NCBI GenBank assembly: GCA_043719295.1
Contig: JAYSUD010000001.1
Location: forward strand, 28,943 to 92,942
Length of the DNA stretch: 64,000 bases
Source of the DNA: a bacterium
GTDB lineage: Bacteria > Patescibacteriota > Minisyncoccia > Phycocordibacterales > UBA918
Reading direction: 5' to 3'
Numbering within the stretch: the stretch's first letter is position 1; each line of letters opens with the position of its first letter. This document shows, piece after piece, positions 7,576 to 46,894 of this stretch. The position numbers and the translations under genes were made by a program. Under the pieces are notes generated by a model. It was not told where the DNA came from and ran no database searches. It saw only the letters and a program-made list of their open reading frames with translations.

Positions 7576-7680
7576 CCACTAGAGTTTGATTTAGAATTGC
7601 TAGGCGTTCATTGTTTATGTAAATCTTATAATGTGTACAGTAGTCATTACTGTTGTGTACATACGTTACAATGGTACGTA

Positions 7681-9600
7681 ATGAATAGGACCTACCTGTG
7701 TAGGAGTCTTGGTGTTATAGCACTTGCTGTTGTTTTAGTGCTCGGTTTTTTCGTCTTTCCGTTTTATAGCAACGCACTTAATATTCACTCATACAGTGAC
7801 ACTATTACCGATTCACGTCCCTTGGGTTATGCAAACCACACACTTGAATTTACGATCAAAACTGATATTGCGCCTTCTGGATTTATTGAAATTGAACCGC
7901 CCTCTGGATTTGAAATTACTTCTGCAGGTACTTTTGGTGAACGTAACGTTGAGGTGTATGTAAATGGGTTGTTGCGAACGGCAAGTTCAACAGGAGGTGC
8001 CACTGTTGATGAAGTAGTTATTACCCGTGGTTCACCTGGACTTATTCGCTATAGTTTAAACCCTACAGCAGGTATTGCAACAGATTCTCTAATTGAAGTA
8101 CGTATCGGTAATCATACTACTGGTGCATTGTATGACAGTGTTTCTTTTAGTAGTACTACAGGCACTACTACAACAATACGTGATACAGAGCCAATTAAAA
8201 ATAGTTCACAAATCGGCACACATAAAGTAGGTATTTCTTTTGGAGGAACTACAGCACCAGCGTATGCTGAGTTTAGTATTGCGGTTGTTAATGCGGTAGG
8301 TACAGGATTTGTTGATACAACTGAAACTGTTCCTCCATATCGTTTTAATGGTGCACCAACAGGTGAGATTGGAGGAACGACATTTAATGTTGAACTATCA
8401 CTTGAAACAGATGAGTTGGCTACGTGTAAGTTTTCGCAAGCATCAGGTACTCCGTATGTTTCAATGAACCGCACTTTTTCTCAAACGGGGCAAGTAGTCC
8501 ACTCGTCAATTGTGTCAGTTGCAACAGGGACACTCAATTCATACTTTGTTCGCTGTCTTGACGATGAAGGAAACTTCAACATTGACGATTACGTTATTTC
8601 TTTTATTTCGCAACCGCCACCATCAGGAAATCCTAACTCTGAAGGAGATGTAGATGGAGACGGAACTGGTACTGGAAATGACGGAACAGGAAGTGGTTCA
8701 GGCAGTGGCGGATCATCGGGAAATTCAAATGGTGGAGGTGGAGGAAGTGGTAGCAGTAGTGGTGGAGGTGGTGGTAGTAGTGGTGGAGGAAGTGGAGGTG
8801 ATAGTGGTACTGAAAATGCCAGTGAATCAGGTGGGGGACTTGAGTCAACTAACGCACCGTATCGAAGTGGTGACGCTGAAGTAGTAATTCGTGGATATGC
8901 ATTCCCTGGAAGTACTGTGTATGGACTTGTTGATGGGTTTCAAACAAAAAATGTAAAAGCAGGCAGTGATGGTAGTTACAGTATGACCATAGAGGAAATT
9001 GCACGTGGAGTGTATACCTTTGGTGTGTACGCAGTTGATGGTAGTGGTAAAAAATCAAGTACGTTTAGTACATCGTTTACCGTCACGGGAGGTAGAACTT
9101 CTAACCTTTCAAATATCAATATCATGCCGTCAATTACGGTAACTCCAAACCCTGTGACATCGGGGCAGTCACTTACTGTTAAAGGCGAATCAATTCCAAA
9201 CGCAGAAGTTACTGTTGAAAATCTAAATGATAAAAGTTCAGCGTCAAGAAAAAGTTTTACTGCAACTGCTAATGCATCAGGTGACTGGTCACTAACTATT
9301 GATACAACTGGCTTCACCAATGGTACGTATAAGATACGCGCAAAATCAAAGCAACTTGCAGGGTTGCTTTTAGAGACAAACTTTTCTGAGTATACATTTT
9401 ATGGAGTAGGTCAAAGTGCGGACGTCCCCTTAAGTGCTGACTTAAACACTGATGGAAAAGTAAACCTAACCGACTTCTCAATCTTACTCTTTTGGTGGGG
9501 AGGTGACGGGGGTAATTCAAACCCCCCTGCTGACATCAATAGAGACAAAAAAGTAAACCTAACCGACTTCTCAATCTTACTCTTCAACTGGACCGGTTAA
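7681..9600 (+). CDS. Secreted dockerin-containing surface protein (shared N-terminal module, Ig-like repeats, Gly/Ser-rich linker, C-terminal dockerin)
   Basis: TM/signal; N-terminal module homologous to 3084/40737 proteins (YSDTITDS...HTLEFTIKT...SGFEIT); (GGS)n linker; C-terminal double repeat DLNTDGKVNLTDFSILLFWWGG / DINRDKKVNLTDFSILLFNWTG matches the dockerin Ca-binding repeats. Track ORF begins 7597; ATG 7681 precedes the signal peptide. Confidence 0.65.
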   Translation: MNRTYLCRSLGVIALAVVLVLGFFVFPFYSNALNIHSYSDTITDSRPLGYANHTLEFTIKTDIAPSGFIEIEPPSGFEITSAGTFGERNVEVYVNGLLRTASSTGGATVDEVVITRGSPGLIRYSLNPTAGIATDSLIEVRIGNHTTGALYDSVSFSSTTGTTTTIRDTEPIKNSSQIGTHKVGISFGGTTAPAYAEFSIAVVNAVGTGFVDTTETVPPYRFNGAPTGEIGGTTFNVELSLETDELATCKFSQASGTPYVSMNRTFSQTGQVVHSSIVSVATGTLNSYFVRCLDDEGNFNIDDYVISFISQPPPSGNPNSEGDVDGDGTGTGNDGTGSGSGSGGSSGNSNGGGGGSGSSSGGGGGSSGGGSGGDSGTENASESGGGLESTNAPYRSGDAEVVIRGYAFPGSTVYGLVDGFQTKNVKAGSDGSYSMTIEEIARGVYTFGVYAVDGSGKKSSTFSTSFTVTGGRTSNLSNINIMPSITVTPNPVTSGQSLTVKGESIPNAEVTVENLNDKSSASRKSFTATANASGDWSLTIDTTGFTNGTYKIRAKSKQLAGLLLETNFSEYTFYGVGQSADVPLSADLNTDGKVNLTDFSILLFWWGGDGGNSNPPADINRDKKVNLTDFSILLFNWTG

Positions 9601-9639
9601 AATGAATTAAATCACTTCATTTGCTTTGTCAGCCTACGA

Positions 9640-9688
9640 AAAAAGACACTCGCTGGGTATTCACCCCACTCGTGTCTTTTTTCTTGTC
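9640..9688 (+). terminator. Probable rho-independent terminator (imperfect hairpin plus T-run)
   Basis: AAAAAAGACACTCGCTGGG...CCCCACTCGTGTCTTTTTTC downstream of the 9600 stop. Confidence 0.4.
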
Positions 9689-9811
9689 TTTCGCGCATCT
9701 AAAGCAATTTACTTCATTTTAATTATTTATAAAAAATTTTAGAAATATCTCGATGCGTAACTGTGCATAAATAACTTCAGTATAAGTAGATAGACACGAT
9801 ATAATTCTTGT

Positions 9812-10276
9812 ATGTCCTTTCTACAAAGACTTAAAGGTCGGGGTGTACGAAGTGGAGAAAAACTACTTTCTTCTGATGAAGCTACTTCGCTTGATAAAAT
9901 TGTGCAACTTGATGTTGACGTGTTTCAAACTGACAACATGATTGTTGTTTATGCACATGCGGCGGGTGCTGATATGTCTGACATTCAAGTTTCCATTGAA
10001 GGAGACGCTGACATTGTACTTATTGAAGGGCGACGACTTCGTCCTGAACATATTGCATTTCCAAAGAAGAAACCTGATGGTGCATTTTTTACTGAAGAAT
10101 GTATCTGGGGCGATTTTTATCGAAGAATTATTTTGCCTGAAAGTGTTGATATCGAAAACGCTGATGCAAAAATTAAAAATGGTGTTCTCATTTTAGTATT
10201 GCCACTTTTGAAAGCTGAAGAAAAAGAAAAAGTAAAACTGAAGATAACTAAAGCAAAGTCAGCACAACGTATGTAA
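9812..10276 (+). CDS. Hsp20/alpha-crystallin family small heat-shock protein
   Basis: ACD pattern VDVFQTDNMIVVYAHAAGADMSDIQVSIEGD..LIEG...GDFYRRIILPESVDIENADAKIKNGVLILVLPL. Confidence 0.75.
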   Translation: MSFLQRLKGRGVRSGEKLLSSDEATSLDKIVQLDVDVFQTDNMIVVYAHAAGADMSDIQVSIEGDADIVLIEGRRLRPEHIAFPKKKPDGAFFTEECIWGDFYRRIILPESVDIENADAKIKNGVLILVLPLLKAEEKEKVKLKITKAKSAQRM

Positions 10277-10285
10277 TAATACATA

Positions 10286-11851
10286 GTGTACTCACATCGT
10301 ATGAATGTTCTTTCTCACACACTCTCTTTCAAAAATTCGCTAATCAAATTAGGTATTGCTGTTTTAGCAGTTTCTATAACTTATTTCTTGTGGGGTATTT
10401 CAAATGCGTATGCAGCTGACTTGGTTGTCTCTCCTTCATCTGGATCATATGCATCGGGACAAACGTTTACCGTAACTATTCAAGCAGATCCAAAAGGTGA
10501 TAGTGTCAATGCGGTTGAAGCTGGACTAACGTTTGATAAAACAAAGCTTTCTGTAGTGAGTGTTTCAAAAACAGGATCTGCGTTTTCACTGTGGACCACT
10601 GAACCAGTTTTTTCAAATACTGCAGGAACTATTACCTTTGGTGGAGGGAGTCCAACTCCGTTTACTGCTAAGTCCACACTTATGAGTGTGACGTTTAGAA
10701 CGCTAACTGAAGGTGCGGGTAGTGTTTCTTTTGGAACTGCGTCAGTTTTGGCTGCAGACGGTAGAGGAACTGATGTGCTTAAAGCAAAAGTTGGAGGAAA
10801 TTACACCGTTACTGCTACAACAGCGCCTGCACCAACGCCAACACCGACCCCAGAGACACCTAAAAAACCTGAAGAAGCACCTAAAACAGAAGATTCAAAT
10901 GCAGCACTTGCGTTTGGAGATCCGCCACGTGCACCTGAAGTCGGATCTGTAACGTTTCTTGATCCTGAGATTTGGTATAACAAAAAAGATGGAGCTTTTA
11001 CCTGGGAGCTTCCGTTTGACGTAAATGCATTACGGGCTGAAATTGCAACCTCAGCATCAAATGTACCAACAACCGTCATAGATCCGCCAAACGAAGAATT
11101 TGTTTTAAATAAAGAAAATATTGTTGACGGTATACAGTACTTGAGTATTCAGTACAAGAACCAAGTTGGTTGGGGTGCTGTTTTAAATCGTAAGATACAA
11201 ATAGATACAACTGCACCAGAGCCATTTGCAATAACTGTGCGAGCTGGAACAACTCCTTCTTCATTCCCACTATTGGTTTTCGATGCAAAAGACGTAACCT
11301 CAGGTATCGAAAAATATGAACTTACTATTGCTTCAAGCGAGCCGGTTATTGTAACTCCTGAAGAAGCACGTTTAGGTTATTTAATTAAAGATCTTGAAGA
11401 CGGTACCTATACAGTCAAAATTGTTGCGTTCGACAAAGCAGGAAACAAAATGGAAAGTAGTGTTCCAATTTTAATTACTGCAGGTTGGATAAAGCCACTT
11501 GATACACTTGAGGAAGTTTCGTTTTGGTCATTCTTAACAGGAACAACTATCTTTGTAACACTTCTTATACTCGCACTCTTGATGCAATTCGCATACTTGG
11601 TATACGAACGAAAGCAATACCGAAAGAAGGAAGAGAAGTTACGAAAAGAGACTCGAGAAATTCAAGATCAAATGGAAAAAATCTTCTCTGCATTACGTGA
11701 TGAGATTTACGATCAAATTAATAATATTTCAAAGCGGCCACGACTATCAGTTAAAGAAAAAGAAGCTGTTGAAGGTCTAAACCAAGCACTTGAAGTATCA
11801 GAGACGCTTATTGAGAAAGAGATTAATGACGTCAAGAAGATACTTAAGTAA
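10286..11851 (+). CDS. Membrane-anchored cohesin-like domain protein (N-terminal cohesin-like module, Pro/Thr linker, Ig/FN3-like domains, C-terminal TM plus cytoplasmic coiled coil)
   Basis: ADLVVSPSSGSYASGQTFTVTIQADP...VSFGTASVLAADGRGTDVLKAKVGGNYTVTA resembles the cohesin beta-sandwich; paralogous modules at 42634, 43679, 46124; C-terminal TM LTGTTIFVTLLILALLMQFAYLV then charged coiled coil. Confidence 0.5.
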   Translation: MYSHRMNVLSHTLSFKNSLIKLGIAVLAVSITYFLWGISNAYAADLVVSPSSGSYASGQTFTVTIQADPKGDSVNAVEAGLTFDKTKLSVVSVSKTGSAFSLWTTEPVFSNTAGTITFGGGSPTPFTAKSTLMSVTFRTLTEGAGSVSFGTASVLAADGRGTDVLKAKVGGNYTVTATTAPAPTPTPTPETPKKPEEAPKTEDSNAALAFGDPPRAPEVGSVTFLDPEIWYNKKDGAFTWELPFDVNALRAEIATSASNVPTTVIDPPNEEFVLNKENIVDGIQYLSIQYKNQVGWGAVLNRKIQIDTTAPEPFAITVRAGTTPSSFPLLVFDAKDVTSGIEKYELTIASSEPVIVTPEEARLGYLIKDLEDGTYTVKIVAFDKAGNKMESSVPILITAGWIKPLDTLEEVSFWSFLTGTTIFVTLLILALLMQFAYLVYERKQYRKKEEKLRKETREIQDQMEKIFSALRDEIYDQINNISKRPRLSVKEKEAVEGLNQALEVSETLIEKEINDVKKILK

Positions 11852-12740
11852 AAATGAGCTACAGAGCGTAGCGACAATAGCGAATTTTGTTCCCAGTTTC
11901 TGCTGCTGACCGAGAGAAATACTTTAAGCCTCAGCTTTGCTGTGCTTAAAGTATTTCTCAGCAGAAACTGCTGGAACTCTCCAACGCTTGGTAATCTCCG
12001 CACCTTGGTATCAAGTATATCGAATTTCCCTTCTTACAGAAGCTGTCCACTCATTGGATACTTTATTTCGTTTCACTCATAAAGTACCTCAATGAGTCTT
12101 GCAAAAGTGTCACACACTTTCTCACCCAGTTTCTGCTGCTGACTCAGAAAAATATTGTACGCCTCAGCTTTAGCTGTGCGTACAATATTTTTCAGCAGAA
12201 ACTGCTGGAACTCTCCAACAGCGACATAACTCTGCATACAGCTATCTTCAACAAAAAACTTCTGGAGCTACCACTCGAACGTAATTCATACTCTATTCTC
12301 TTGTGTGCTACTGAAATCGAGAAAGATCGAGAGTGAGCTAAGCGTTAGAGACGTCCAGCAGTTTCCGCCGATCATAGTTTAGAACACGGCTAGCGCCGAG
12401 TTTCTAAACTATTCTCTAGGGCAAGGCGGAAACTGGGACGCACCGTACTCTGGAGTAGAAGTTTGCTATTGTCGTTTGCATACTACTGAAATCGAGAAAG
12501 ATCGAGAGTGAGCTTAGCGTTGGAGACGTCCAGCGATTTTTGCTGAACAATACTGTCTGCACAGCTAACGCTGAGGCAGACAGTATTGTTCTGGGTCAGT
12601 AGCAAAAATCGGGACGGAAGTTCGTCATTGTCGCTACAGACAGTGGAGTTAACTTAAGGTTCGAGACGTCGATACCAAGCCCAGGAAAGGGCAAGGTACT
12701 GACGGAAATTCGCCATTGTCGTCTGCGACTCTGTGGCTCA
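11852..12740. repeat. Cluster of ~5 family-1 long palindromic hairpin elements (100-190 bp each), both orientations
   Basis: Units built from GTAGCGACAATAGCGAATTTCCGTCCCAGTTTCCGCC ...variable inner stem... CTCAGCTAACGCTGAGG ...GGCGGAAACTGCTGGACGTCTCCAAC. Copies at ~11868-11987, 12125-12224, 12342-12480, 12517-12633, remnant 12660-12735. Confidence 0.8.
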
Positions 12741-12801
12741 TTCCTCTCCACAGTTATAAAGCGCCAAATAAGGGTTTGACGCGTTATAATTATTGAGAAT
12801 A

Positions 12802-12821
12802 CACAGTAATAAATACTGTGT
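12802..12821. promoter_or_regulatory. Perfect 8-bp-arm palindrome ACACAGTA-ATAA-TACTGTGT upstream of giant adhesin gene (candidate operator)
   Basis: Seen directly; located ~175 nt upstream of the RBS-supported start at 12995. Confidence 0.3.
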
Positions 12822-12994
12822 AGGTTGTATGTAACTGGATGAGGTTTTTCTCAAAAAAAAGAGGTGAGAATACTATAATATCCATATTTAAAGCGCTATA
12901 TTTTACAGTGTGTGCTTTTGTTGCATCCTTCTCTACAAAACTAGTACCAAGAAGAATATTTGTCACATACAACTCAATATTGAGGAGATTAAAA

Positions 12995-15900
12995 ATGTCG
13001 ATTATCACTGCCTTGATACTTGTTGGTATTGGTGGTGTGGGTGTGCACTATACATTTTCAAATATCTATGCAAGTGATCATAAGGGTAGTATTAAAAGCA
13101 CACTTTTGGTGTATCCTTCCACTGTATTAGATTCAACATGGGGTGGAGTTACCGATGCGCTCACTTCAGACTTGGATGAAGAATCGATGTATCAAGATTT
13201 TTCTGCACGTAATTCAGCGTATATACTTTTGACTTCAGATGATTCTACTCAACCATCAAATGCAAATACACAATCGCAAAATCAAGTTGTCCCACAACCT
13301 GACGAAAAAACAGATGATGCACCTTTAATTCCTTCAGATGAAACTCAATCATCAGTACTTGAATCTGATGTTGTACCAGATGCTCCTGCTCTAGAAACTG
13401 AAACTGAAAGTGTGAGTGAACCAGTGACTTTAAAAAAGGCTACTGCTTCAGTTTTTACATTCCTTGAAACAGTAACTCGATTATTTCCTTTCGCACAAGA
13501 GACGGTACAAGAACCAGTAAGTGAACAAGAATCAGATTCTGAAGCATCGCTTGAGAATATACCCCAAGCTGAAGTTGTTGAAACTCTGAAGCCAACAGTT
13601 GTTGAAGTTCAAACTGTAGAGGAGCTGCCAGTACCTCTAGAAAATTCAACTGTTTCGACAACATCTCCATCAATAACTCTGCCAATGCTAGCGCCAGTTA
13701 CAAATGAAACGAAAGAAGTAAATGTACAACAGCAAAATTCAGTGCAACACTCGATCACTCTTTCTGATTTTAGTATTCCCGATTTAAAAACAGGTGAATT
13801 TATTACCAACGTTCAGTTGCGTATGTCACTTGGAGCTAAGTACAAAGATCAAGATAGTGAGGTCAAACCAGAAATATCAATTAGTTACAAAACACCATCA
13901 TCGACAAGTGATGTGGGTACCATTATTCTTGAAGATGAAGTTTCAAATGCACTCAATGGTGGATACTTTTTGTTTGCTCTTCCTGAAATTCTCACAGCTT
14001 CAGAGTTACGTGATATACACATTACCGTAACTTACAAAGGTGACATAAAAAAACTTGACGGAGTATTTCTTGATGCAGTATGGCTTGAGATAGATGTTGA
14101 GAGCATTGATAAAGAGGCTCTTGAAGAACAGGTATTAATTGATACACAAATAAAACAGGATGAACCTTTGCTCCACACAATGATTAGCGAACAGGTGGAT
14201 TTTACACGAAGCGAACTTCCAAAATTCAGTCTTAAGTACAATGCACAACGTAATATTGCTGTTCGGTTTTTCCGAGATTTATTTGGTCGTGATTTAGCAA
14301 CTATTGAAGATGTCTCATTTGTACACAGCGATGCTGGTGATATTGGCGCTACTCCTAAAATTGATATGACAAGTGAAGGCTTGCTCACTATTCAGTTTGA
14401 GGAAAATGACATGCGTCGCTTGAAGCCTGGGGAATACACAGTTGAACTTGAGGTAAACGAAGGGGGGGTATCATACACCGACTCATTCTCTTTCCAGTGG
14501 GGACTTTTGTCTTTGAACTCTAACAAGAGTGTCTATACACCAAATGAAACTGCAACAATATCCTTGGGTTCTTTGTCACTTAATGGAAACACTGTATGTG
14601 ATGCAAATTTGCGGTTGTATATTATTGATGGAGCTAATGGTGTTTCAAAATCTGAGGTTACTCCTTCTGGTTTGTGTAACGGAAATAATGTTATTGATAT
14701 TGCAGACTACAGTGCCACATTTATACCAACAACAGTTGGTATACATGAAATGTATCTTGAGCGAATTGATGTTGACGGTACCATTATGTCCCACACTTCC
14801 GATACCTTTGATGTTCGAGAAGTAGTACCACTATCAATAGAGAGAAATGGACCAAGTAGAATCTATCCGAGAGCAACCTATCCGATGGAGCTTATTGTAG
14901 ATGGAAAGTCACCATGGGTAGGAACACTTGTTGAAGTTGTTCCTTCTGATTTTGTAATTTCAGAAACTGATGCGATCGTTACCAAGAGAGGTGATTTCCA
15001 AGAACTTACATGGGATATCAGTGTTGATGTAGATGCGCCACAGACAGTCTCATATACATTTGATGCTCCAGATATTTCACCATTTTTGTATACGGTAGGA
15101 AAAGCAAAACTGGTGGGTATACAACCCGAACCTCAGGTTATTGATGATGCTCAAGTGGAGGTATTGGTACCAAGTGAAGTAGAGCCACTTTCTCCTGTTA
15201 CTGTCCCCGATGATACAGTAATTGATGTCATTGATGCTACAGATACTCCTATTGCTGTAGAGCCCATAGAATCAGTCCCCGAAACAATAGCTACTTCAAG
15301 CACAGAAAGTTCTCTTGAAGAAAAAGACATGCAACCTGTTGAAGAGGAAAAAACGTTGTTAGAAAAAATAATTGATTTTATTCCGTTTATTGGAAACGAT
15401 GAAACGCCCGCATCATCTGAGGTTGTTGAACCCGTATCGGAACTGCAAGTATCTACACCAGAACTTCAAGAGCCTACACCTATGGATCAGGTTGTTGCAT
15501 CAGAAATCGATGCGCTAACTCCTTCATCAGCAGTAGAAACAGAAGTCATAGCTTCTTCAACAATCTTAATGAGTGAAGCTGTTACTGTAGAAGCAATGGG
15601 GGGTGAGACAGTTTTTGAAGAGCATCGTCAATGGCAAATTGCGTCTGATGCAACGGGAAGTATGATTGCCTATTGGACTTCAGGTGCCTCCGTGCCATCA
15701 GGATGGACTTGCTTGTCATGTGGCTCTGGAACTTTTTACCAAAAGTTTGTACGTGGTGGAGCAACTTATAATCAAACAGGAGGCGCTGCTACGCATACGC
15801 ACAACGCAAGTGGTACCGTCAATGCTTCAGCTGTAGCTAACTCAGAAAACAGAGCAGGTGTTAACGTCGCACTTAATTCTCACTCACACACATACACACC

Positions 15901-39379: not shown

Positions 39380-39380
39380 A

Positions 39381-39791: not shown

Positions 39792-39806
39792 GTACTAAGT
39801 ATAATA

Positions 39807-40736: not shown

Positions 40737-41882
40737 ATGTTGAAAACGGAAAAAACCGTTATATTGCTCAAAACTATTGCAACGGTGGCAGGCTTCGCGA
40801 TCATTTTATGGTCACTTGGTCTGCCGTCACTCCGCTTTGCGGACGCCGCAAACATCACGGATGTTAGCGACACACTCTCAGATTCAGCACCGAGTGCTGC
40901 ATCAGATCACACGCTTTCGTTCGTAACTCCAACAGGAGTTTTAAACGGAGCAACCACAACCATCACGTTTCCAGCAGGATTCACGGGAATTGGTGCACTT
41001 GGTGTTGAAGATGTAGACTTTGCGTCTTCATCTGATATGTCAATTGCAACCACGTGTAGCGGTTCTGAACGAGTAAGATTTATTCCTTCAGGCCAGACGG
41101 TAAGTTTTGTTTTCTGTCCAGGTGACGGAGGAGTGCTTGCAGCTGGTGCTACCACTACTATCCAAATTGGTTTTAATGCCACATTTGGTTCAGCGGGTAA
41201 TTCTCGGATATCGAATCCAGCAGGAGAAGGATCATATGAAATCGGCTTTACGGTCGGTGCATCTGATTCTGGATGGACTCGAGTTGTAATCTTAAGTGAT
41301 GTACTTGTTACAGCGGCTGTTGACACAATCTTTACGTTCGCTGTCGCGGGCTTAGGTGCGGGTCAAACAGTTAATGGGACAACAACAACAGGAATTACTG
41401 GTTCAACCACTATTCCTTTTGGTACACTCGCAGCTGGAGTAGCAACTCGAACAGCACAAAGTCTCACAGTAAATACAAATGCGGCTAATGGGTATGTTGT
41501 CACCGTACAACTTGACCAACCTCTTCAGTCATCAACTGGAGCGGACATTGACGGATTTGCTCAAGGATCGTACACAAATACTCCCGTTGCATGGGTAGCT
41601 CCAACAAGTGTTGTTGGTAGCGAAAACACTTATGGACACTGGGGTATAACTTCTGACGATGCAACCACAACACGAAGCGTAGGAGATGAGTTCAATGCTA
41701 ATGAATTTGCATCAGCAAGCACATCACCTCGCGTAGTTATGAGCCATACAGGACCAACAAATGGTACTATAACTGGCGAAGGGACTACACGTGTAGGTTA
41801 CAAAATTCAGATTGGTGGACTCCAAGAGGCTGGAGATGATTACACTGCTACGCTTACGTACGTAGCAACTCCTACTTTTTAA
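40737..41882 (+). CDS. Secreted cell-surface protein, paralog of 3084..4151 (shared N-terminal module and WxL-like C-terminal domain)
   Basis: ADAANITDVSDTLSDS...HTLSFVTPTGV...TITFPAGF; C-terminus ...TYGHWGITSDDATTTRSV...GDDYTATLTYVATPTF. Confidence 0.6.
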   Translation: MLKTEKTVILLKTIATVAGFAIILWSLGLPSLRFADAANITDVSDTLSDSAPSAASDHTLSFVTPTGVLNGATTTITFPAGFTGIGALGVEDVDFASSSDMSIATTCSGSERVRFIPSGQTVSFVFCPGDGGVLAAGATTTIQIGFNATFGSAGNSRISNPAGEGSYEIGFTVGASDSGWTRVVILSDVLVTAAVDTIFTFAVAGLGAGQTVNGTTTTGITGSTTIPFGTLAAGVATRTAQSLTVNTNAANGYVVTVQLDQPLQSSTGADIDGFAQGSYTNTPVAWVAPTSVVGSENTYGHWGITSDDATTTRSVGDEFNANEFASASTSPRVVMSHTGPTNGTITGEGTTRVGYKIQIGGLQEAGDDYTATLTYVATPTF

Positions 41883-41989
41883 AGAAATAATATACTCGCG
41901 TTACATTATTTTCTTGTACGGTTTATACGAAATATCTGTCGCGTCAGAGAATGCCAGTAAACCGAAAAATTGCAATAGCAAGAGCATCA

Positions 41990-42024
41990 AAAAACCTATC
42001 TCCCACCACGAGTAGGTTTTTTGT
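41990..42024 (+). terminator. Rho-independent terminator after 40737..41882
   Basis: AAAAACCTATCTCCCACCACGAGTAGGTTTTTTG: 8-bp stem AAAACCTA/TAGGTTTT plus T-run. Confidence 0.6.
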
Positions 42025-42029
42025 TTGTG

Positions 42030-42600
42030 AAATGAGCTACAGAGTGAAAAAGTCTGGGAGACTTTTGCAAGAGGTTGACTACTATTTTGAATAAAATAGT
42101 GACAACCTGAACAGCTTCTGTAAGAAGTAGCGACAATAGCGAATTTCCGTCCCAGTTTCCGCCTTGCCCGAGAGTATAGTTTAGAACCTCGGCGTTAGCC
42201 GTGTTCTAAACTATGATCGGCGGAAACTGCTGGACGTCTCCAAAACTAAAACTAACTCTGTCTACTGTAGCGACTATTCTGAATTTCCGTCAGTGATTTT
42301 TATTCCTAATAAAATCATCGACGTCTCTAAAACTACAATATACTTTGTCAGCAGTAGCGACAATAGCGAATTTCCGCCCCAGTTTCTTTCCTACAGAAAC
42401 GGTTCACTTTGTCACTTTTTCTTCAATATATTAAAGAAAAAGTAGTCAAAGTCTTGCGAAGTGACGTTTAGTCACTTCTCACCTTGCCCGAGAGTATAGT
42501 TTAGAACCTCGGCGCTAGCCGTGTTCTAAACTGTGATCGGCGGAAACTGCTGGACGTCCCGAACGTTTAGTTAAATTAGCTCATCTCAAACAAAGTACTA
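42030..42600. repeat. Cluster of family-1 elements (42128-42245; short copy 42268-42340; 42352-42565 carrying a nested extra hairpin) preceded by family-3 hairpin (42040-42075)
   Basis: GTAGCGACAATAGCGAATTTCCGTCCCAGTTTCCGCCTTGCCCGAGAGTATAGTTTAGAACCTCGGCGTTAGCCGTGTTCTAAACTATGATCGGCGGAAACTGCTGGACGTCTCCAA; the third copy has a ~80-bp insertion forming its own stem (GTCACTTTTTCTTCAATATATTAAAGAAAAAGTAGTCAAAG...). Confidence 0.75.
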
Positions 42601-42633
42601 CTTTACATATCAATTTGTGCATAAAACTTCAAT

Positions 42634-43674
42634 TTGAATGTCTACTCACGGTATACTAAACATATGAAAATCTTTCTCCCGATTTTAGCTTTATTCTTTT
42701 TGGTATGTTTGAAGGCTGACGCGGCGTCACTCTATATGGACCCAAACAACACTGAACTTAAACGTGGTGACACCATTAAGGTTTCGGTACGTTTAGATAC
42801 CGAAGAAGGTGAATGTGTGAATGCAGTAGATGGAGTAATTACCTACACTGAGAACATTCAGCCCGTTGATACCTCCAGAGGCAGTTCAATTTTTAGTATG
42901 TGGGTTGAGGAACCTGTTATTGATAAAGTAAAACGAACTATTACTTTTGCTGGGGGAATTCCAAATGGGTACTGTGGACGTATTCCTGGAGATCCTCGCC
43001 TTACTAACAACATTGTCGATCTCTTATTTCAATCACCGGGGATGCAAATTGGAACAACGGAAAGCGGAAACGAGGCCTTAATTGAATTTAATCCAAGTAC
43101 TCAAGTATATTTAAATGATGGATTTGGAACAGTAGCACAAACCTCTTTTTTCGGCTCAAAAATAATTCTTTCCAAAGACGCAGGTGCTACTCAAATCAAT
43201 CCATGGCAAGAAGCTGTTGTAGATGATGCAATTGCTCCTGAGAAATTTAGTATTGCCCTTGAACGTACAACAAACGCTTTCAGTAATGATTATTTTATTG
43301 TGTTTAACACAACAGACAAACAGTCAGGTATTGATCACTATGAAATAATTGAGGAACCACTTAATTCTAAAAATCTTTTTGGTTGGGGAGCTGAAACTGC
43401 ACCATGGCGTGAAATAAAAAGCCCATATGTACTTGAAGATCAGTCGCTTAACAGTACTATCAGAGTTAAAGCAATTGATAAGGCGGGTAATGAATATATT
43501 GCAATTTATGTTGTGGAAGAAGAGAAGCGAACAATTTCAAAGAATACGCTCTATACAATAGGAGGTGCAGTGATTCTTGTCACAATCTTACTGGGACTTC
43601 TTGTTATTGGTATAACACTTATAAGAAGACGAAAAATGAATGTGGTTATACCAGTTGAAGATTCTATTAAATAA
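42634..43674 (+). CDS. Cohesin-like domain protein with Ig-like second domain and C-terminal TM anchor
   Basis: Signal peptide; ASLYMDPNNTELKRGDTIKVSVRLDTEEGECVNAVDGVITYTENIQPVD...ITFAGGIPNG cohesin-like beta-sandwich pattern; C-terminal TM LYTIGGAVILVTILLGLLVIGITLI + RRRK. Confidence 0.45.
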   Translation: MNVYSRYTKHMKIFLPILALFFLVCLKADAASLYMDPNNTELKRGDTIKVSVRLDTEEGECVNAVDGVITYTENIQPVDTSRGSSIFSMWVEEPVIDKVKRTITFAGGIPNGYCGRIPGDPRLTNNIVDLLFQSPGMQIGTTESGNEALIEFNPSTQVYLNDGFGTVAQTSFFGSKIILSKDAGATQINPWQEAVVDDAIAPEKFSIALERTTNAFSNDYFIVFNTTDKQSGIDHYEIIEEPLNSKNLFGWGAETAPWREIKSPYVLEDQSLNSTIRVKAIDKAGNEYIAIYVVEEEKRTISKNTLYTIGGAVILVTILLGLLVIGITLIRRRKMNVVIPVEDSIK

Positions 43675-43678
43675 TCAT

Positions 43679-45442
43679 ATGCAACAACAAACAGTATCTG
43701 CAGTTGCTCACATAAAAAAGCTTATTGTAGTATTTTGTTTTCTCTTTTTCTTAGTATCGATTGACACGGCGTTTGGAGCAACTTTATCAGTTTCACCGGC
43801 AACAGGTGTCTATACAGCTGGGCAAACATTTACTGCTAGAGTTGTGGTCAACACCAGTGGCGCAGCGGTAAATGCAGCTGACGGTACACTATCATTCAAA
43901 CCAAGCGAAATTAGTGTCGTGAGCGTTGCCAAAGGTTCAATTTTTAATCTTTGGACGGCAGACCCATCATTTTCAAACGCAAACGGTACAATAACTTTTA
44001 GTGGAGGAAGTCCAACGGGCTACACAGGGAGCGCTGGTACGGTAATTAGTGTTACCTTTAAAGCAAAGGCAGCAGGCAGTCCCAAAGTCTCATTTTCAAG
44101 TGGTTCAGTGTTAGCAGCTGACGGTAGAGGGACTAACGTTCTTTCAACAATGAATGGAGGAGCTTTTACTATTACTGCACAAGAAACACAGCCACAGGCT
44201 GAAGTAGTTGTTGAATATATAGCGCCAGCGAATACCCCAAGTGCTCCCAAGGTAGAATCAGCAACACATGGAGACCAGACAAAGTGGTATACCAATAAAA
44301 ACGCAGAGCTAACGTGGAGTGTTGGAAGTGACATCGTTGCTGTCCGCACATTACTTGATGCAAACAAAACAACGGTTCCGACAAAAGTCTATGAAGAGCC
44401 GCTTCGAAAAATTTCGCTTTCTGATTTAAGTGAAGGTGTACAGTATTTCCATGTGCAACTTAAAAATGCTGATGGTTGGGGAAAGGTGACTCACTATAGA
44501 CTTGCAATAGATACACAGAAACCAGAATCATTAGAGCTCTCTCTTAAGCCAGATTCTGATTTATCAAGTTCACTTCAAACGCTCAGTATAAAAAGTTCTG
44601 ATGTAACATCAAAAGTTATACGATTTATGGTTCGGATTGATGACAAAGAGCCATTTGAATATATAGACGTACAAGGTAGTTCAACTATTCCGCTTCCATC
44701 TTTGGAGCCTGGGTATCACACTGTTATTGTTGAAGCGTTTGACGAGGCTTCAAACGGTATAATCAATTCTCTTTCATTTACGATTTTAGCATTTGATAAA
44801 CCGCAATTTACTGAATACCCTCAAGAAATTAACGAACAGGTTATTCCAGTAATAAAAGGTATAACACGTCCTAAATCAAAAGTTGTGGTAACGTTAACCG
44901 AACTTGGAGGTGGCACGTCTTCAAACAAAGTGGTAACCCAAGAAGTAACAAGTTCCGATACGGGGGAATTTATATTTATTCCAAACGGCAGACTCACTGT
45001 TGGAGTGTATGAACTTACCGCCGTTGCGGTAGATCAATATGGAGCACAAAGTAGTGTCTCGGATGTGGTGCGTATAGCAGTCCAGCAACCAGGTTACTTA
45101 CGACTTGGTAGTTTTATGGTGAGTTTCTTGTCGGTTCTCATTCCACTTTGTGCACTTGTGGCAGTTATGGTGTTTGGAGCATGGTTGTTGTATCTTAAAC
45201 TCAGATTGTTTAAAAAGGGAGTGAGAAGGGAGTCAAAAGAAGCTGAAGTAATTCTCGCAACTGAGTTTGAACACTTACAAAGTGAAATACTCTATCAGCG
45301 AACACTTCTTGAAGATTCAAGAAAAACAAAAAAGCTCACCAAAGCTGAATTGCTACTCTTTGATACGCTTACTAGTGCACTCATGAAATCCCAACAGAAA
45401 GTACAGAAAGAGATTGAAGACGTTGAACACCTAGTAGAATAA
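43679..45442 (+). CDS. Membrane-anchored cohesin-like domain protein (cohesin-like N-domain, Ig-like repeats, C-terminal TM, cytoplasmic coiled coil); architecture parallels 10286..11851
   Basis: ATLSVSPATGVYTAGQTFTARVVVNTSGAAVNAADGTLSFKPSEISVVSVAKGSIFNLWTADP...VSFSSGSVLAADGRGTNVLSTMNGGAFTITA, clear paralog of the 10286 protein module; C-terminal TM + KLRLFKKGVRRESKEAEV... coiled coil. Start moved to ATG 43679 (the track start at 43640 overlaps the upstream gene). Confidence 0.5.
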   Translation: MQQQTVSAVAHIKKLIVVFCFLFFLVSIDTAFGATLSVSPATGVYTAGQTFTARVVVNTSGAAVNAADGTLSFKPSEISVVSVAKGSIFNLWTADPSFSNANGTITFSGGSPTGYTGSAGTVISVTFKAKAAGSPKVSFSSGSVLAADGRGTNVLSTMNGGAFTITAQETQPQAEVVVEYIAPANTPSAPKVESATHGDQTKWYTNKNAELTWSVGSDIVAVRTLLDANKTTVPTKVYEEPLRKISLSDLSEGVQYFHVQLKNADGWGKVTHYRLAIDTQKPESLELSLKPDSDLSSSLQTLSIKSSDVTSKVIRFMVRIDDKEPFEYIDVQGSSTIPLPSLEPGYHTVIVEAFDEASNGIINSLSFTILAFDKPQFTEYPQEINEQVIPVIKGITRPKSKVVVTLTELGGGTSSNKVVTQEVTSSDTGEFIFIPNGRLTVGVYELTAVAVDQYGAQSSVSDVVRIAVQQPGYLRLGSFMVSFLSVLIPLCALVAVMVFGAWLLYLKLRLFKKGVRRESKEAEVILATEFEHLQSEILYQRTLLEDSRKTKKLTKAELLLFDTLTSALMKSQQKVQKEIEDVEHLVE

Positions 45443-45452
45443 TTTTAATTTC

Positions 45453-46127
45453 ATGTTTACAGTTACCTCGACAAACAAAAAAACGATACTTAATGCTTTC
45501 GTGATACTTTTTTTGCTATTAGTTTGTGTATTTGTGTATATACGCCAAAATCAAGAAAAATTTGTTGCACATACAAAATTGAAAATTTCTGAACAACAAA
45601 CAACTCTTTCTTCAATTGCGTTGCTTACCTCAAAGGACGGTGCAGACATGGTCGTTTCAAAAATTATTAAAGATTGCAGTCCTGAAAACAGAGCTTTGTT
45701 TGATGAAAAGTTGAGTAACTTACCGCAACTTAAAGGGCAGGAGCTTGTACAAATGGAACAACTTTTTAATGCATGTGGGAATTTTTTCGCTGAACAAAAT
45801 GCAGTAATGGTCGCGCGCCTTACACGTGAGTATGAATTCTATGCTGATCTTATTGAGATCAATTCTGTTGTTGGTAAACGATTTGATGAGCGAGTATACA
45901 AAAAAGAAGAATGGGAACAACTTGTTCTCCTTGCAACCAAACGTAGTGAATTATCAACAAAACTTGTTGACGCACAAGGAGCTATAATTCGAGCACTTAG
46001 AAATAATGTGACTATAGCCTCAGATGTGATGCAGGCGGAACTTGTTGAAGCACAAAAAACAAAACAGGAACTTGTAACTGTAACTCTTGATATTGACTCA
46101 CGTCTGCAACAGATCCTTAATCTATGA
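45453..46127 (+). CDS. N-terminally membrane-anchored helical protein, unknown function
   Basis: Single N-terminal TM (ILNAFVILFLLLVCVFVYI), otherwise charged/helical; no recognised motif. Confidence 0.4.
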   Translation: MFTVTSTNKKTILNAFVILFLLLVCVFVYIRQNQEKFVAHTKLKISEQQTTLSSIALLTSKDGADMVVSKIIKDCSPENRALFDEKLSNLPQLKGQELVQMEQLFNACGNFFAEQNAVMVARLTREYEFYADLIEINSVVGKRFDERVYKKEEWEQLVLLATKRSELSTKLVDAQGAIIRALRNNVTIASDVMQAELVEAQKTKQELVTVTLDIDSRLQQILNL

Positions 46128-46894
46128 CCCTATTTAAAAAAATATTATATTTTTTTTGTGCAAGCTGTCGTCCTAACCGAAGCAGCACCGTTCGTTACGC
46201 CTTTCCACTTGTTTTTACCCTCGCTGCATTCTTAGGCGCTGCAGTTATCGTAACTGATAATAAATCCTTTATTCATCTTGAATCTTCTGTTGCTTCAGTT
46301 AATGCAGGAGAATCATTTCAGATAGAAATCTATGTTTCTGCACATGTTCCGGTTAATGCTGTAGACATCACGCTTGAGTTTCCAAAAAACCAGATTAAAG
46401 TTACAAGTATTGATAAAGGGGAATCAGTGTTGACCTTATGGACACAAGAACCAAGGGTTGAAAATAATAAAGTGTATTTAACGGGAGGTACGTTTAGAAG
46501 AGGTTTTATTGGTGACCACCTCATCGCAACTATCAATGCCCGTGCAATTCAATCAGGTTTAGCAAAATTCAGTGTAGATAATGTTTCACTTCTTGCGGGC
46601 GACGGTTCAGGTTCAAAAGTTTCTGTAACTAAAAATGATAAGGAAAGTGCAACACTCTACATAACAAATGCAGATGGTACTAAAACACAGGGAACTGAGG
46701 CTGTGGGGGTACAGGGAGTAACTTCGGTTGTGATCATAACCGACATTGATGGCGATGGACAAGTTACATTAGCCGATATAAGTCGTTTTATGTCAGCATG
46801 GAATACAAAAACAATCACCTATGACTTTAACGGTGATGGTGCTATGTCGTTTAGAGATTTTGGGATAATACTCGCCGATTCCTTCCTCCGCTAA
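46124..46894 (+). CDS. Adaptor-like protein with cohesin-like domain plus C-terminal dockerin
   Basis: N-terminal TM/signal; ...VNAGESFQIEIYVSAHVPVNAVDITLEFPKNQIKVTSIDKGESVLTLWTQEP...FSVDNVSLLAGDGSGSKVSV cohesin-like; C-terminus DIDGDGQVTLADISRFMSAW...DFNGDGAMSFRDFGIILADSF dockerin repeats. Confidence 0.55.
   Translation: MTLFKKILYFFCASCRPNRSSTVRYAFPLVFTLAAFLGAAVIVTDNKSFIHLESSVASVNAGESFQIEIYVSAHVPVNAVDITLEFPKNQIKVTSIDKGESVLTLWTQEPRVENNKVYLTGGTFRRGFIGDHLIATINARAIQSGLAKFSVDNVSLLAGDGSGSKVSVTKNDKESATLYITNADGTKTQGTEAVGVQGVTSVVIITDIDGDGQVTLADISRFMSAWNTKTITYDFNGDGAMSFRDFGIILADSFLR

What the first reader, a model, noticed from the sequence alone, without database searches (positions are those of the whole stretch)
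7597..46894. Non-cellulosomal cohesin-dockerin surface-display system with TM-anchored scaffoldins, an adaptor and non-enzymatic dockerin cargo
Three proteins end in a textbook two-segment dockerin: 7681..9600, 37548..38684, 46124..46894 (DxNxDGxVNLTDFSILLF(W/N)W, twice). Four proteins carry a ~135-aa cohesin-like beta-sandwich module: 10286, 42634, 43679, 46124. Three of these are anchored by a C-terminal TM helix, rather than SLH or sortase, and two add a cytoplasmic coiled coil. One protein has cohesin and dockerin together, like a cellulosomal adaptor scaffoldin. The dockerin cargo are Ig-like or Cys-rich adhesin-like proteins; no glycoside hydrolase is visible. Together this is a complete cellulosome-like assembly logic used for something other than polysaccharide degradation, next to giant adhesins.
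Basis: partly seen in the sequence, partly recalled or inferred. Interest (0 to 1): 0.75.

Follow-up and report, generated by a model that had tools for sequence, protein, structure and literature searches.

The report
Membrane-anchored cohesin-dockerin set in Parcubacteria
A tiny, probably host-dependent bacterium (Parcubacteria) carries a conserved set of cohesin "sockets" fixed in its membrane and dockerin "plugs" on secreted pilin-like and cysteine-rich proteins, so it probably uses the cellulosome's plug-and-socket parts to hold surface structures, not enzymes, on the cell.

Summary
The window holds exactly four cohesin modules (B 10301..11851, D 42664..43674, E 43679..45442, F 46124..46894) and three C-terminal two-repeat dockerins (A 7681..9600, C 37548..38684, F). 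Pfam passes its own threshold for cohesins B and E and dockerins A and C. D and F are tied in by profile homology, and F also by a predicted fold whose 50 best PDB matches are all cohesins.

No carbohydrate-active enzyme is present, and anchoring is by transmembrane helices. F is probably membrane-anchored itself, so it is unlikely to be a free adaptor. No binding was tested.

New points:
- The organism is a Parcubacteria/Paceibacteria (CPR) bacterium, and the whole locus is syntenic in relatives.
- Dockerin protein A, an HSP20 gene and cohesin protein B are adjacent in 59 of 59 metagenome loci.
- A's head is homologous to the N-terminal domain of two neighbouring proteins that weakly match the recently described CPR "Pam" pilus pilin. 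Chaperone-like genes lie alongside.

Most likely, Ca-dependent dockerin-cohesin binding tethers secreted surface or pilus components to membrane stalks. It is a new variant of a known kind (non-cellulosomal cohesin-dockerin), and I found no description of it in CPR.

The parts
7681..9600 (+). Protein A (639 aa). Signal peptide, pilin-NTD-like beta-sandwich head (aa ~35-202), fn3-like domain (221-310), Gly-rich linker, Big_6, Big_13, C-terminal type-1 dockerin (nt 9436..9597).
   Evidence: Pfam Dockerin_1 29.3, Big_13 32.2 and Big_6 29.7 bits, all above their gathering scores. AF2 model of the head has pLDDT 88. Head profile vs the window's pilin-like family: 98.8%, E=8e-17. 3991 relatives in the 50%-identity representative library.
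9812..10276 (+). HSP20 small heat-shock protein with no signal peptide. It always lies between A and B.
   Evidence: Pfam HSP20 43.4 bits. Present between the dockerin and the cohesin in 59/59 metagenome loci.
10301..11851 (+). Protein B (516 aa; ORF opens at 10286). Signal peptide, cohesin (nt 10406..10825), Pro/Thr linker, two Ig/fn3-like domains, TM helix (nt 11516..11608), 80-aa charged cytoplasmic tail.
   Evidence: Pfam Cohesin 25.8 bits, above the 24.1 gathering score. 858 homologues, the best 120 full-length at 63-92% identity. Hydropathy. The tail is the most conserved region: 0.92 mean column conservation, 60% of columns invariant.
37548..38684 (+). Protein C (378 aa). Signal peptide, Cys-rich repeats, Gly-rich linker, Big_6, Big_13, type-1 dockerin (nt 38517..38681).
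   Evidence: Pfam Dockerin_1 29.0 and Big_13 27.2 bits. TIGR02232 cysteine-rich repeat 39 bits. Best PDB sequence match is the cellulosomal dockerin 2y3n_B, E=0.0018. Orthologue with the same dockerin in L082 and L085.
42664..43674 (+). Protein D (336 aa; ORF opens at 42634). Signal peptide, divergent cohesin with an insertion (nt 42709..43188), Ig-like domain, TM helix (nt 43543..43632), short tail.
   Evidence: No Pfam hit. phmmer to B 2e-12 and to E 1e-11. hhalign to the E-family cohesin 98.9%, E=3e-17, 136 columns. Hydropathy. Orthologues in L082, L085 and L086.
43679..45442 (+). Protein E (587 aa). Signal peptide, cohesin (nt 43760..44194), Ig-like domains including Big_13, TM helix (nt 45095..45211), 75-aa charged tail homologous to B's.
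   Evidence: Pfam Cohesin 37.2 and Big_13 32.9 bits. 1133 homologues, the best 120 full-length at 55-100% identity. Hydropathy.
45453..46127 (+). 224-aa protein with an N-terminal TM segment and a helical remainder. It lies between E and F in most relatives and is absent in L085.
   Evidence: Hydropathy. Synteny. No family hit above threshold.
46124..46894 (+). Protein F (256 aa). Conserved N-terminus plus TM segment (nt 46190..46261), cohesin (nt 46259..46678), linker, type-2 dockerin (nt 46736..46891).
   Evidence: AF2 plus Foldseek: the 50 best PDB matches are all cohesins. Dockerin_1 22.3 bits against a 22.9 gathering score. Ca-ligand positions are invariant in 103 orthologues. Modelled helices 216-228 and 243-255 each follow a loop. 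819 homologues. The N-terminus is far more conserved than cleaved signal peptides.
3084..4151 (+). Pam-pilin-like protein (355 aa), paralogue of 40737..41882.
   Evidence: NCBIfam NF058581 CPR_Pam_pilin_C, E=1.6e-5, 25 bits, below the cut-off of 55, covering the whole profile. 4 of 5 family members hit it.
4288..5370 (+). Chaperone-like protein (360 aa). Signal peptide, WxLIP_PGBD-like beta-sandwich, C-terminal TM segment(s).
   Evidence: Pfam WxLIP_PGBD 26.6 bits against a 27.3 gathering score. Hydropathy. Architecture as described for PamC/PamD. Present upstream of A-B in 22/22 loci with at least 8 kb upstream.
36600..37544 (+). Second protein with the same build (314 aa): signal peptide, beta-rich ectodomain, C-terminal TM. 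It lies directly upstream of C.
   Evidence: Hydropathy. Syntenic 317-aa orthologues. No family hit above threshold. Assigned by architecture only.
40737..41882 (+). Pam-pilin-like protein (381 aa), directly upstream of D-E-F.
   Evidence: NF058581 E=4.4e-5, 23.6 bits, below cut-off, whole profile. 53% identical to 3084..4151. Its N-terminus is similar to A's (BLASTP 2e-7).
31794..34552 (+). MacB/FtsX-type ABC transporter pair inside the locus: ATPase of 440 aa with a C-terminal extension, and a permease of 402 aa.
   Evidence: NCBIfam and Pfam. Syntenic in L082 and L085. Its role in the system is unknown.
12839..29725 (+). Giant 5628-aa secreted protein directly downstream of B.
   Evidence: ORF list. 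Pfam DUF2341 and an Ig domain only. Orthologues of 5.7-5.9 thousand aa follow B in L083 and L084.

Best explanation
WHAT IT IS. This is a lineage-wide, non-cellulosomal cohesin-dockerin set built into the cell-envelope and pilus gene supercluster of a Parcubacteria/Paceibacteria (CPR) bacterium.

PROPOSED MECHANISM:
- B, D and E are exported by Sec and stay in the cytoplasmic membrane through one C-terminal helix. Each holds a single cohesin away from the membrane on two or three Ig-like domains.
- F is held by an N-terminal helix and carries both a cohesin and a divergent dockerin.
- A and C are secreted and have no anchor of their own. Each ends in an Ig-like stalk and a symmetric, Ca-binding type-1 dockerin.
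- The dockerins plug into the membrane cohesins, so the heads of A (pilin-like) and C (Cys-rich) are kept on the cell surface on a long composite stalk.
- The most economical pairing is A to B and C to E. The two similar dockerins would match the two similar cohesins, and each pair is in the same gene block. F's type-2 dockerin would bind D's or F's own type of cohesin and cross-link the anchors.
- A shares the pilin N-terminal domain but lacks the strand-accepting C-terminal domain. It may therefore cap and anchor the cell-proximal end of a Pam-like pilus built from the 355-aa and 381-aa pilin-like proteins.

SHOWN: domain identities, cohesin fold, predicted topology, family sizes, strict gene linkage.

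INFERRED: that the modules bind each other, which pairs form, the link to the pilus, and a role in attachment to a host or surface.
For: - Domain identity: Pfam above threshold for two cohesins and two dockerins. All four cohesins form one homologous family. F's module is modelled as a cohesin whose nearest solved structures are the A. fulgidus and C. perfringens non-cellulosomal cohesins; that archaeal versions form specific dockerin-cohesin bonds is stated in PMC9012536.
- Dockerins: canonical ligand positions 1, 3, 5, 9 and 12 in both repeats. These are over 90% conserved in 98 representative proteins at 50% identity or less. They are invariant in 103 F orthologues.
- In F's model a helix follows each loop and none precedes it. 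This is the dockerin loop-helix motif, not an EF-hand pair.
- A and C have no hydrophobic segment other than the signal peptide, so they need a partner to stay on the cell.
- Linkage: a type-1 dockerin ends 0.6-1.2 kb upstream of B's cohesin in 59/59 metagenome loci, and A's head is present in 43/43. C, D, E and F keep their modules in L082, L085 and L086; A and B keep theirs in L083 and L084.
- Purifying selection: the dockerin helices are nearly invariant in 57 unique A-B pairs. The cohesin is the most conserved part of E, and the dockerin the most conserved part of F.
- Residues invariant across all four paralogous cohesins (N78/A79, W106, P110, a Gly of the GG pair at 121-122, D160/G161/G163 in F numbering) fall on modelled strands 3, 5, 6 and the end of 8. 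That is the sheet that binds dockerin in solved complexes (my knowledge of cohesin structures; mapped by strand order only).
- Pilus link: hhalign of A's head vs the pilin-like family gives 98.8%, E=8e-17 over the N-terminal domain plus linker region. The pilin-like proteins hit NF058581. Pilin-like and chaperone-like genes lie upstream of A-B in 22/22 loci. Pam pili are ended and anchored by a TM protein in the published model.
Against: - No binding test of any kind was possible.
- D and F cohesins and F's dockerin miss Pfam's thresholds.
- Sequence matches to solved cohesins are weak (E=0.026).
- There are four cohesins and only three dockerins in the window. The rest of the genome was not examined.
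- The F model is only moderate overall (pLDDT 72, dockerin about 70).
- The pilin link rests on NF058581 scores of 23-25 bits against a cut-off of 55.
- A's segment that aligns with the presumed donor strand loses the alternating hydrophobic pattern of the pilins.
- Fold searches with A's head return only generic Ig-like, pilin and adhesin domains.
- The Pam paper reports Pam pilins mainly in Saccharimonadia and Microgenomatia, not Parcubacteria.
Confidence: 0.6

Rival explanations
1. The modules are real cohesin and dockerin folds but do not bind one another. The cohesin-like sandwiches would act as ligand-binding or spacer domains of membrane stalk proteins, for example binding host-surface or wall polymers. 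The dockerins would be Ca-stabilised C-terminal modules that bind something else, such as peptidoglycan or the S-layer, or that aid folding and secretion. The gene linkage would reflect a shared envelope function, not a direct plug-and-socket contact.
For: No interaction was tested. D, F and F's dockerin fall below the Pfam thresholds. The counts do not match, with four cohesins and three dockerins. The type-1 dockerin helices (DFSILLFWW) are unusually hydrophobic compared with classical dockerins. Cohesin-like domains without known dockerin partners exist, for example TMEM132 (PMC6030884, listed).
Against: Both partner families are present together and strictly linked (59/59). A and C have no other means of retention. 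The most conserved parts of E and F are exactly the cohesin and the dockerin. The closest solved structures are non-cellulosomal cohesins, and archaeal versions are reported to form specific dockerin-cohesin bonds (PMC9012536).
Confidence: 0.2
2. The membrane cohesin proteins B and E are receptors or mechanical couplers, not passive anchors. Occupancy or load on the extracellular cohesin would be passed through the single TM helix to a conserved cytoplasmic helix. That helix would recruit a cytoplasmic partner, possibly the HSP20 encoded between A and B.
For: B's 80-aa cytoplasmic tail is the most conserved part of the protein: 0.92 mean column conservation and 60% invariant, against 0.79 and 32% for the cohesin. 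E has a homologous tail. A cytoplasmic HSP20 gene sits between A and B in 59/59 loci.
Against: E's tail is much less conserved (0.60). D has almost no tail. No signalling domain is present. The link to HSP20 is by adjacency only. This reading adds to the tethering model and does not exclude it.
Confidence: 0.12
3. It is a true cellulosome-like enzyme complex for polysaccharide breakdown, whose enzymes are encoded elsewhere or are unrecognised.
For: Cohesin and dockerin modules are the hallmark of cellulosomes. Weak sub-threshold hits to BNR_2 and DUF4832 occur in neighbouring proteins.
Against: No glycoside hydrolase, esterase, lyase or carbohydrate-binding module passes a threshold in any ORF of the 64 kb. 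There is no multi-cohesin scaffoldin. All three dockerin proteins carry non-enzymatic heads. Of the 150 best representatives of A's family, those that end in the dockerin share the same non-enzymatic head.
Confidence: 0.03

Closest known systems
Non-cellulosomal cohesin-dockerin modules (Peer et al. 2009, as cited in PMC9012536 and PMC10066038; A. fulgidus cohesin 2xdh; C. perfringens cohesins 2jh2, 2vo8, 2w1n; ANME archaea, PMC9012536)
   Same: Single cohesins and dockerins on proteins unrelated to cellulose breakdown. These are the nearest structural matches to F's cohesin. Proteins combining a dockerin with cohesin(s) also occur in ANME.
   Different: Here the cohesin proteins are integral membrane proteins, with a C-terminal TM helix plus a conserved cytoplasmic helix in B and E, or an N-terminal TM segment in F. 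The set is a strongly conserved syntenic core locus of one CPR lineage, whereas PMC9012536 describes dockerin/cohesin proteins as varying considerably between closely related species. The cargo is pilin-like. I found no paper that mentions dockerin or cohesin domains together with Parcubacteria or Patescibacteria.
Cellulosome anchoring systems (C. thermocellum type I/II cohesin-dockerin with SLH-anchored scaffoldins; sortase-anchored ScaE of R. flavefaciens) and the R. bromii amylosome (PMC4611034)
   Same: A two-repeat Ca-binding dockerin at a protein's C-terminus and a roughly 140-aa nine-strand cohesin. A cell-bound cohesin retains secreted dockerin proteins. The near-identical repeats in A and C recall the dual binding mode.
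   Different: No enzymes, no multi-cohesin scaffoldin, and no SLH or sortase anchor. The pairings are unknown.
Pam pilus system of CPR bacteria (Troman et al. 2026, bioRxiv 10.64898/2026.03.03.709456)
   Same: The locus holds two proteins that match the Pam pilin C-terminal domain model over its full length, and two signal-peptide/beta-sandwich/C-terminal-TM proteins built like PamC/PamD. In the published model a membrane protein ends and anchors the pilus.
   Different: The matches are below NCBIfam's cut-off. The paper does not mention cohesin, dockerin, Parcubacteria or ABC transporters. Its anchor PamR is a single TM protein with its own donor strand. Here that role, if it exists, would be split between A (pilin-like head plus dockerin) and B (cohesin plus Ig/fn3-like domains plus TM).
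WxL / DUF916 (WxLIP) surface-protein loci of Firmicutes
   Same: 4288..5370 nearly reaches the WxLIP_PGBD threshold and has the same build of signal peptide, beta-sandwich and C-terminal TM.
   Different: No WxL domain was found. The resemblance concerns only the chaperone-like gene, not the cohesin-dockerin set.

Membership tests
Cohesin domain (Pfam PF00963) | Score at or above Pfam's gathering score (24.1 bits) | tested here: met
   B 25.8 and E 37.2 bits. D and F give no hit on their own, but precomputed Pfam marks most B and E orthologues and one F orthologue (P0244) as PF00963.
Cohesin domain (Pfam PF00963) | All four proposed modules belong to one homologous family with the Pfam-positive ones | tested here: met
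   phmmer 1e-11 to 1e-35 within the window. hhalign: D-E 98.9%, F-E 98.2%, B-E 100%.
Cohesin domain (Pfam PF00963) | Nine-strand jelly-roll beta-sandwich like solved cohesins | tested here: met
   Tested for F only. AF2 gives nine strands. The 50 best Foldseek PDB matches are all cohesins, E down to 1e-8, target-normalised TM up to 0.81. B, D and E were not modelled.
Cohesin domain (Pfam PF00963) | Binds a dockerin on the 8-3-6-5 sheet | not testable with these tools
   No multimer prediction is available. The only indirect sign is that paralogue-invariant residues fall on modelled strands 3, 5, 6 and 8.
Dockerin type I (Pfam PF00404) | Score at or above the gathering score (22.9 bits) | tested here: met
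   A 29.3 and C 29.0 bits. F scores 22.3, just below; nine of the 120 listed F orthologues carry a precomputed PF00404 hit.
Dockerin type I (Pfam PF00404) | Two tandem 12-residue Ca-binding loops (ligands at positions 1, 3, 5, 9, 12), each followed by a helix, at the C-terminus | tested here: met
   All six loops fit. They are conserved in 98 and 103 relatives. In F's model helices 216-228 and 243-255 follow the loops. EF-hand models score below their own thresholds.
Dockerin type I (Pfam PF00404) | Ca2+-dependent folding and cohesin binding | not testable with these tools
   Needs biochemistry or complex prediction.
Cellulosome | Scaffoldin with several cohesins | tested here: not met
   Each of B, D, E and F has exactly one cohesin.
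Cellulosome | Dockerins on carbohydrate-active enzymes | tested here: not met
   No CAZyme domain in A, C, F or any other ORF of the window. The dockerin-ending members of A's family share A's non-enzymatic head.
Cellulosome | Cell attachment through SLH domains or sortase | tested here: not met
   No SLH or LPXTG/sortase hits. TM helices are used instead.
Pam pilus system (CPR) | Pilin with N-terminal sandwich, linker strand and truncated Ig C-terminal domain (NCBIfam NF058581, cut-off 55 bits) | tested here: inconclusive
   3084..4151 scores 25.0 bits and 40737..41882 scores 23.6 bits, E about 1e-5, over the whole 148-position profile. It is the only family hit, and 4 of 5 family members match. 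All are below the cut-off.
Pam pilus system (CPR) | PapD-like chaperones that carry a C-terminal TM helix | tested here: inconclusive
   4288..5370 scores 26.6 bits on WxLIP_PGBD (gathering score 27.3) and has C-terminal TM segments. 36600..37544 has the same build but no family hit. Folds were not modelled.
Pam pilus system (CPR) | Donor-strand exchange between subunits; terminator/anchor protein | not testable with these tools
   A shares the pilin N-terminal domain and the start of the linker and lacks the acceptor domain. Whether it donates a strand could not be tested.

The most novel reading that the evidence does not exclude
In Parcubacteria/Paceibacteria the dockerin-cohesin pair is the membrane anchor of a donor-strand-exchange (Pam-like) pilus. 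A would be a terminator subunit: a pilin N-terminal domain plus linker with no acceptor domain. It would cap the cell-proximal end of the filament and plug, through its stalk and dockerin, into the TM-anchored cohesin B. B's invariant cytoplasmic helix would couple the filament to a cytoplasmic partner, with HSP20 encoded between the two genes. This would be a 'split PamR', the first case of a cohesin-dockerin joint used as a pilus anchor, and a non-covalent, releasable one.
Probability: 0.2. Interest if true: 0.8.

Novelty: new variant of a known kind. Interest (0 to 1): 0.6.

Why it matters
CPR/Patescibacteria make up a large share of bacterial diversity and mostly live attached to other cells. 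How they build and hold their surface structures without sortase, SLH domains or an outer membrane is largely unknown. This locus is a concrete, testable candidate.

- The set comprises four membrane cohesins and three dockerin proteins, conserved across about 800-1100 sequence clusters per family.
- It is strictly linked to pilin-like, chaperone-like, ABC-transporter and giant surface-protein genes.
- If the modules bind as in cellulosomes, Parcubacteria use a non-covalent, Ca-dependent joint to tether pilin-like and Cys-rich surface proteins. The released filaments seen in CPR cultures and the anchoring of Pam-type pili could then be studied with simple recombinant modules.
- It would also extend cohesin-dockerin biology to integral membrane anchors with conserved cytoplasmic tails.

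Tried and rejected
- Single-sequence PDB search with E found nothing. A 12-sequence cohesin profile gave only weak cohesin hits (E=0.026), so I turned to structure prediction.
- PDB sequence search with the 381-aa pilin-like protein found nothing.
- A full-length B profile against the PDB gave only Ig-like repeat hits and no RbmA/PamR-like match.
- Covariation between A's dockerin and B's cohesin was prepared on 57 unique pairs and dropped. The dockerin helices do not vary, so no signal can exist.
- The afdb50 library was not available. Peer et al. 2009 is not held. The first exact look-up failed because the ORF start was too far upstream.
- A cellulosome reading was rejected for lack of enzymes and scaffoldin.
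- An EF-hand or RTX reading of the C-terminal repeats was rejected. EF-hand models score below threshold and below Dockerin_1 in A and C, and the modelled motif is loop-helix, not helix-loop-helix.
- There are no tRNA or Rfam elements in the window.

Full report
CHECK OF THE OBSERVATION

The ORF map shows a long run of co-oriented + strand genes. Pfam assigns Dockerin_1 above its gathering score to A (7597/7681..9600; 29.3 bits) and C (37548..38684; 29.0 bits). F (46124..46894) scores 22.3 bits against a threshold of 22.9. Pfam assigns Cohesin above threshold to B (10286..11851; 25.8 bits) and E (43640..45442; 37.2 bits), but not to D (42634..43674) or F.

Within the window the four proposed cohesin modules recognise each other and nothing else. 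The values are B-E 1e-35, D-B 2e-12 and F-E 2e-13, and every other six-frame ORF has E>0.08. Profile-profile comparison with orthologue alignments gives D-E 98.9% over 136 columns and F-E 98.2%.

The dockerin Ca-loop pattern occurs six times in all six frames. That is two each at the C-termini of A, C and F. A and C share one dockerin type (E=2e-24). F's dockerin is a second, divergent type.

An AlphaFold2 model of F was built from 103 orthologues (pLDDT 72 overall, 80-90 in the sandwich). It has nine strands, and its 50 best Foldseek matches in the PDB are all cohesins. The best are the non-cellulosomal cohesins of Archaeoglobus fulgidus (2xdh) and Clostridium perfringens (2jh2, 2vo8), with target-normalised TM 0.77-0.81. 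In the same model each Ca loop is followed, not preceded, by a helix. This is the dockerin motif and not an EF-hand pair. C's dockerin has a cellulosomal dockerin (2y3n_B) as its best PDB sequence match.

Hydropathy confirms that B, D and E have a signal-like N-terminus and one C-terminal TM helix. B and E add charged tails of about 80 aa.

WHOSE GENOME, AND HOW GENERAL

The tRNA-guanine transglycosylase at 62122..63369 is up to 84% identical to proteins of Patescibacteria MAGs. Most named hits are Parcubacteria, Paceibacteria or Kaiserbacteria.

E, B and F are each large, tight orthologous families with 1133, 858 and 819 hits. The best 120 of each are essentially all full-length, at 53-100% identity.

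The whole window is syntenic in relatives. One block reads: fn3 protein, ABC ATPase, MacB/FtsX permease, a protein of about 620 aa, a protein of about 315 aa, C, a pilin-like protein, D, E, (224 aa), F, then proteins of about 550, 2000 and 340 aa (L082, L085, L086). The other reads: DinB, pilin-like, chaperone-like, small TM protein, two FGE-sulfatase-domain proteins, A, HSP20, B, giant protein (L083, L084). Family HMMs recover the same cohesin and dockerin complement in each of these loci.

A metagenome scan with the B profile returned 80 further loci. The results of scanning them with family HMMs are:
- A type-1 dockerin ends 0.6-1.2 kb upstream of B's cohesin in 59 of 59 loci that have enough upstream sequence.
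- An HSP20 gene lies between them in 59 of 59.
- A's head is present in 43 of 43.
- Pilin-like and chaperone-like genes are present in 22 of 22.

A exhaustive HMMER search of the 50%-identity representative library with A found 3991 relatives, 2033 of them below 1e-10. Of the best 150, 98 end in the same ...DFSI(L/M)L(F/Y)xW(T/S)G dockerin, and those share A's head. Their consensus keeps all Ca ligands at over 90%.

(i) F has no C-terminal anchor. It does have an N-terminal hydrophobic segment (aa 23-46) preceded by a conserved stretch (S-x-TVR-x-AFP). This region is much more conserved (0.56-0.68) than the cleaved signal peptides of B and E (0.27-0.39). F is therefore probably an N-anchored membrane protein and not a soluble adaptor.

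(ii) The most conserved part of E is its cohesin, and of F its dockerin. For B the most conserved part is the cytoplasmic tail, at 0.92 mean column conservation with 60% of columns invariant.

(iii) Residues invariant in all four paralogous cohesins fall on modelled strands 3, 5, 6 and the end of 8. This is the dockerin-binding sheet of solved cohesins. The mapping is by strand order only and rests on my knowledge of cohesin structures.

(iv) The two repeats of the A/C dockerin are nearly identical to each other, as in dual-binding-mode dockerins. F's two repeats differ.

(v) NCBIfam's model for the C-terminal domain of the CPR 'Pam' pilus pilin (NF058581) is the only family hit of 3084..4151 (355 aa) and 40737..41882 (381 aa). 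It covers the whole profile at E about 1e-5 but scores below the curated cut-off.

The Pam system was described in 2026 in a Saccharimonadia bacterium. Its pilins have an N-terminal sandwich, a donor linker strand and a truncated Ig acceptor domain. Its PapD-like chaperones carry C-terminal TM helices, and a TM protein (PamR) ends and anchors the filament. That paper does not mention cohesin, dockerin or Parcubacteria.

In the window, 4288..5370 nearly reaches the WxLIP_PGBD threshold and has C-terminal TM segments. 36600..37544 has the same build.

A's head is homologous to the pilin-like proteins over the whole N-terminal domain and into the linker (hhalign 98.8%, E=8e-17). A lacks the acceptor domain. 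In its place A has an fn3-like domain, a Gly-rich linker, Big_6, Big_13 and the dockerin. Fold searches with A's head (pLDDT 88) give only generic Ig-like, pilin and adhesin matches and cannot settle the point.

MOST LIKELY MECHANISM

B, D, E and F are membrane-fixed cohesin stalks. A and C are secreted proteins whose only means of retention is the C-terminal dockerin. Ca-dependent dockerin-cohesin binding keeps their heads on the cell surface.

Similarity and gene order suggest that A pairs with B and C pairs with E. F's second-type dockerin would bind D's or F's own type of cohesin. A may in addition cap and anchor a Pam-like pilus.

Domain identity, fold, topology, family size and linkage are shown. 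Binding, pairing and the pilus role are inferred. I put 0.6 on the tethering model and about 0.2 on the pilus-anchor version.

The rivals are:
- The modules do not bind each other (0.2).
- B and E act as transmembrane couplers through their conserved tails (0.12; compatible with tethering).
- It is a true cellulosome (0.03). No enzyme domain passes a threshold anywhere in the 64 kb, and there is no multi-cohesin scaffoldin.

COMPARISON WITH WHAT IS KNOWN, AND NOVELTY

Non-cellulosomal cohesins and dockerins are well documented. Examples are Peer et al. 2009 as cited, ANME archaea, C. perfringens, and Omnitrophota giant proteins.

Full-text searches found no paper that links dockerin or cohesin domains with Parcubacteria or Patescibacteria beyond CAZyme-style counting in biogas MAGs. 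Public records carry at most automatic labels.

The system fails three defining features of a cellulosome. It meets the domain-level definitions of cohesin and dockerin.

It differs from described non-cellulosomal cases in four ways: integral-membrane anchoring, conserved cytoplasmic tails, strict lineage-wide synteny, and pilin-like cargo next to Pam-like pilus genes.

I therefore rate it a new variant of a known kind, with interest 0.6. The modules themselves are not surprising. The anchoring logic could make the open question of how CPR cells hold their surface filaments directly testable.

Noticed in passing
window 9812..10276: A cytoplasmic HSP20 gene lies between dockerin protein A and cohesin protein B in 59 of 59 metagenome loci. 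There is no obvious reason for a small heat-shock protein to be locked into this position.
   Followed up: partly
window 11609..11848 (B tail) and 45212..45439 (E tail): B's 80-aa cytoplasmic tail is the most conserved region of the protein (60% of columns invariant in 31 orthologues at 64-80% overall identity). E has a homologous but less conserved tail. No known domain matches either.
   Followed up: partly
window 5707..6585 and 6636..7457: Two tandem secreted proteins with a C-terminal FGE-sulfatase-type domain lie between the pilin/chaperone-like genes and A, and are syntenic in relatives. They may modify surface proteins; the Pam paper reports a modified serine on PamA.
   Followed up: no
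window 31794..33116 and 33344..34552: A MacB/FtsX-type ABC transporter sits inside the locus and is syntenic in L082 and L085. Its ATPase has a C-terminal extension of about 200 aa with no family match.
   Followed up: no
window 8310..8625 (A residues ~210-315): A's second, fn3-like domain recurs 4-10 times in proteins of 1000-2800 aa elsewhere in the representative library. It is therefore also a building block of giant surface proteins.
   Followed up: no
window 38685..40736: About 2 kb of low coding density interrupts the cluster. It holds the only minus-strand gene, a TrpR/HTH-type regulator (39381..39791), just upstream of the pilin-like gene and D-E-F.
   Followed up: no
window 46157..46171 (F residues 12-15): F's conserved cytoplasmic N-terminus contains a CxxC pair (FCASCRPN). 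The pair is present in the majority consensus of 103 orthologues.
   Followed up: no
window 35..2761: A LexA-like S24 peptidase and a DinB-type polymerase flank an IS200-like Y1 transposase fragment on the minus strand (678..1346). A relative (L083) has a metallo-beta-lactamase-fold gene at that position instead.
   Followed up: no
window 12839..29725 and 48833..55024: Secreted ORFs of 5628 aa and 2063 aa follow B and F respectively, and the arrangement is syntenic. Only Ig-like, DUF2341 and weak BNR hits were found, and neither carries a cohesin or dockerin.
   Followed up: partly
window 1..64000: No tRNA gene and no Rfam family occur in 64 kb. Nearly all genes are on the + strand, and cumulative GC skew rises throughout.
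   Followed up: yes
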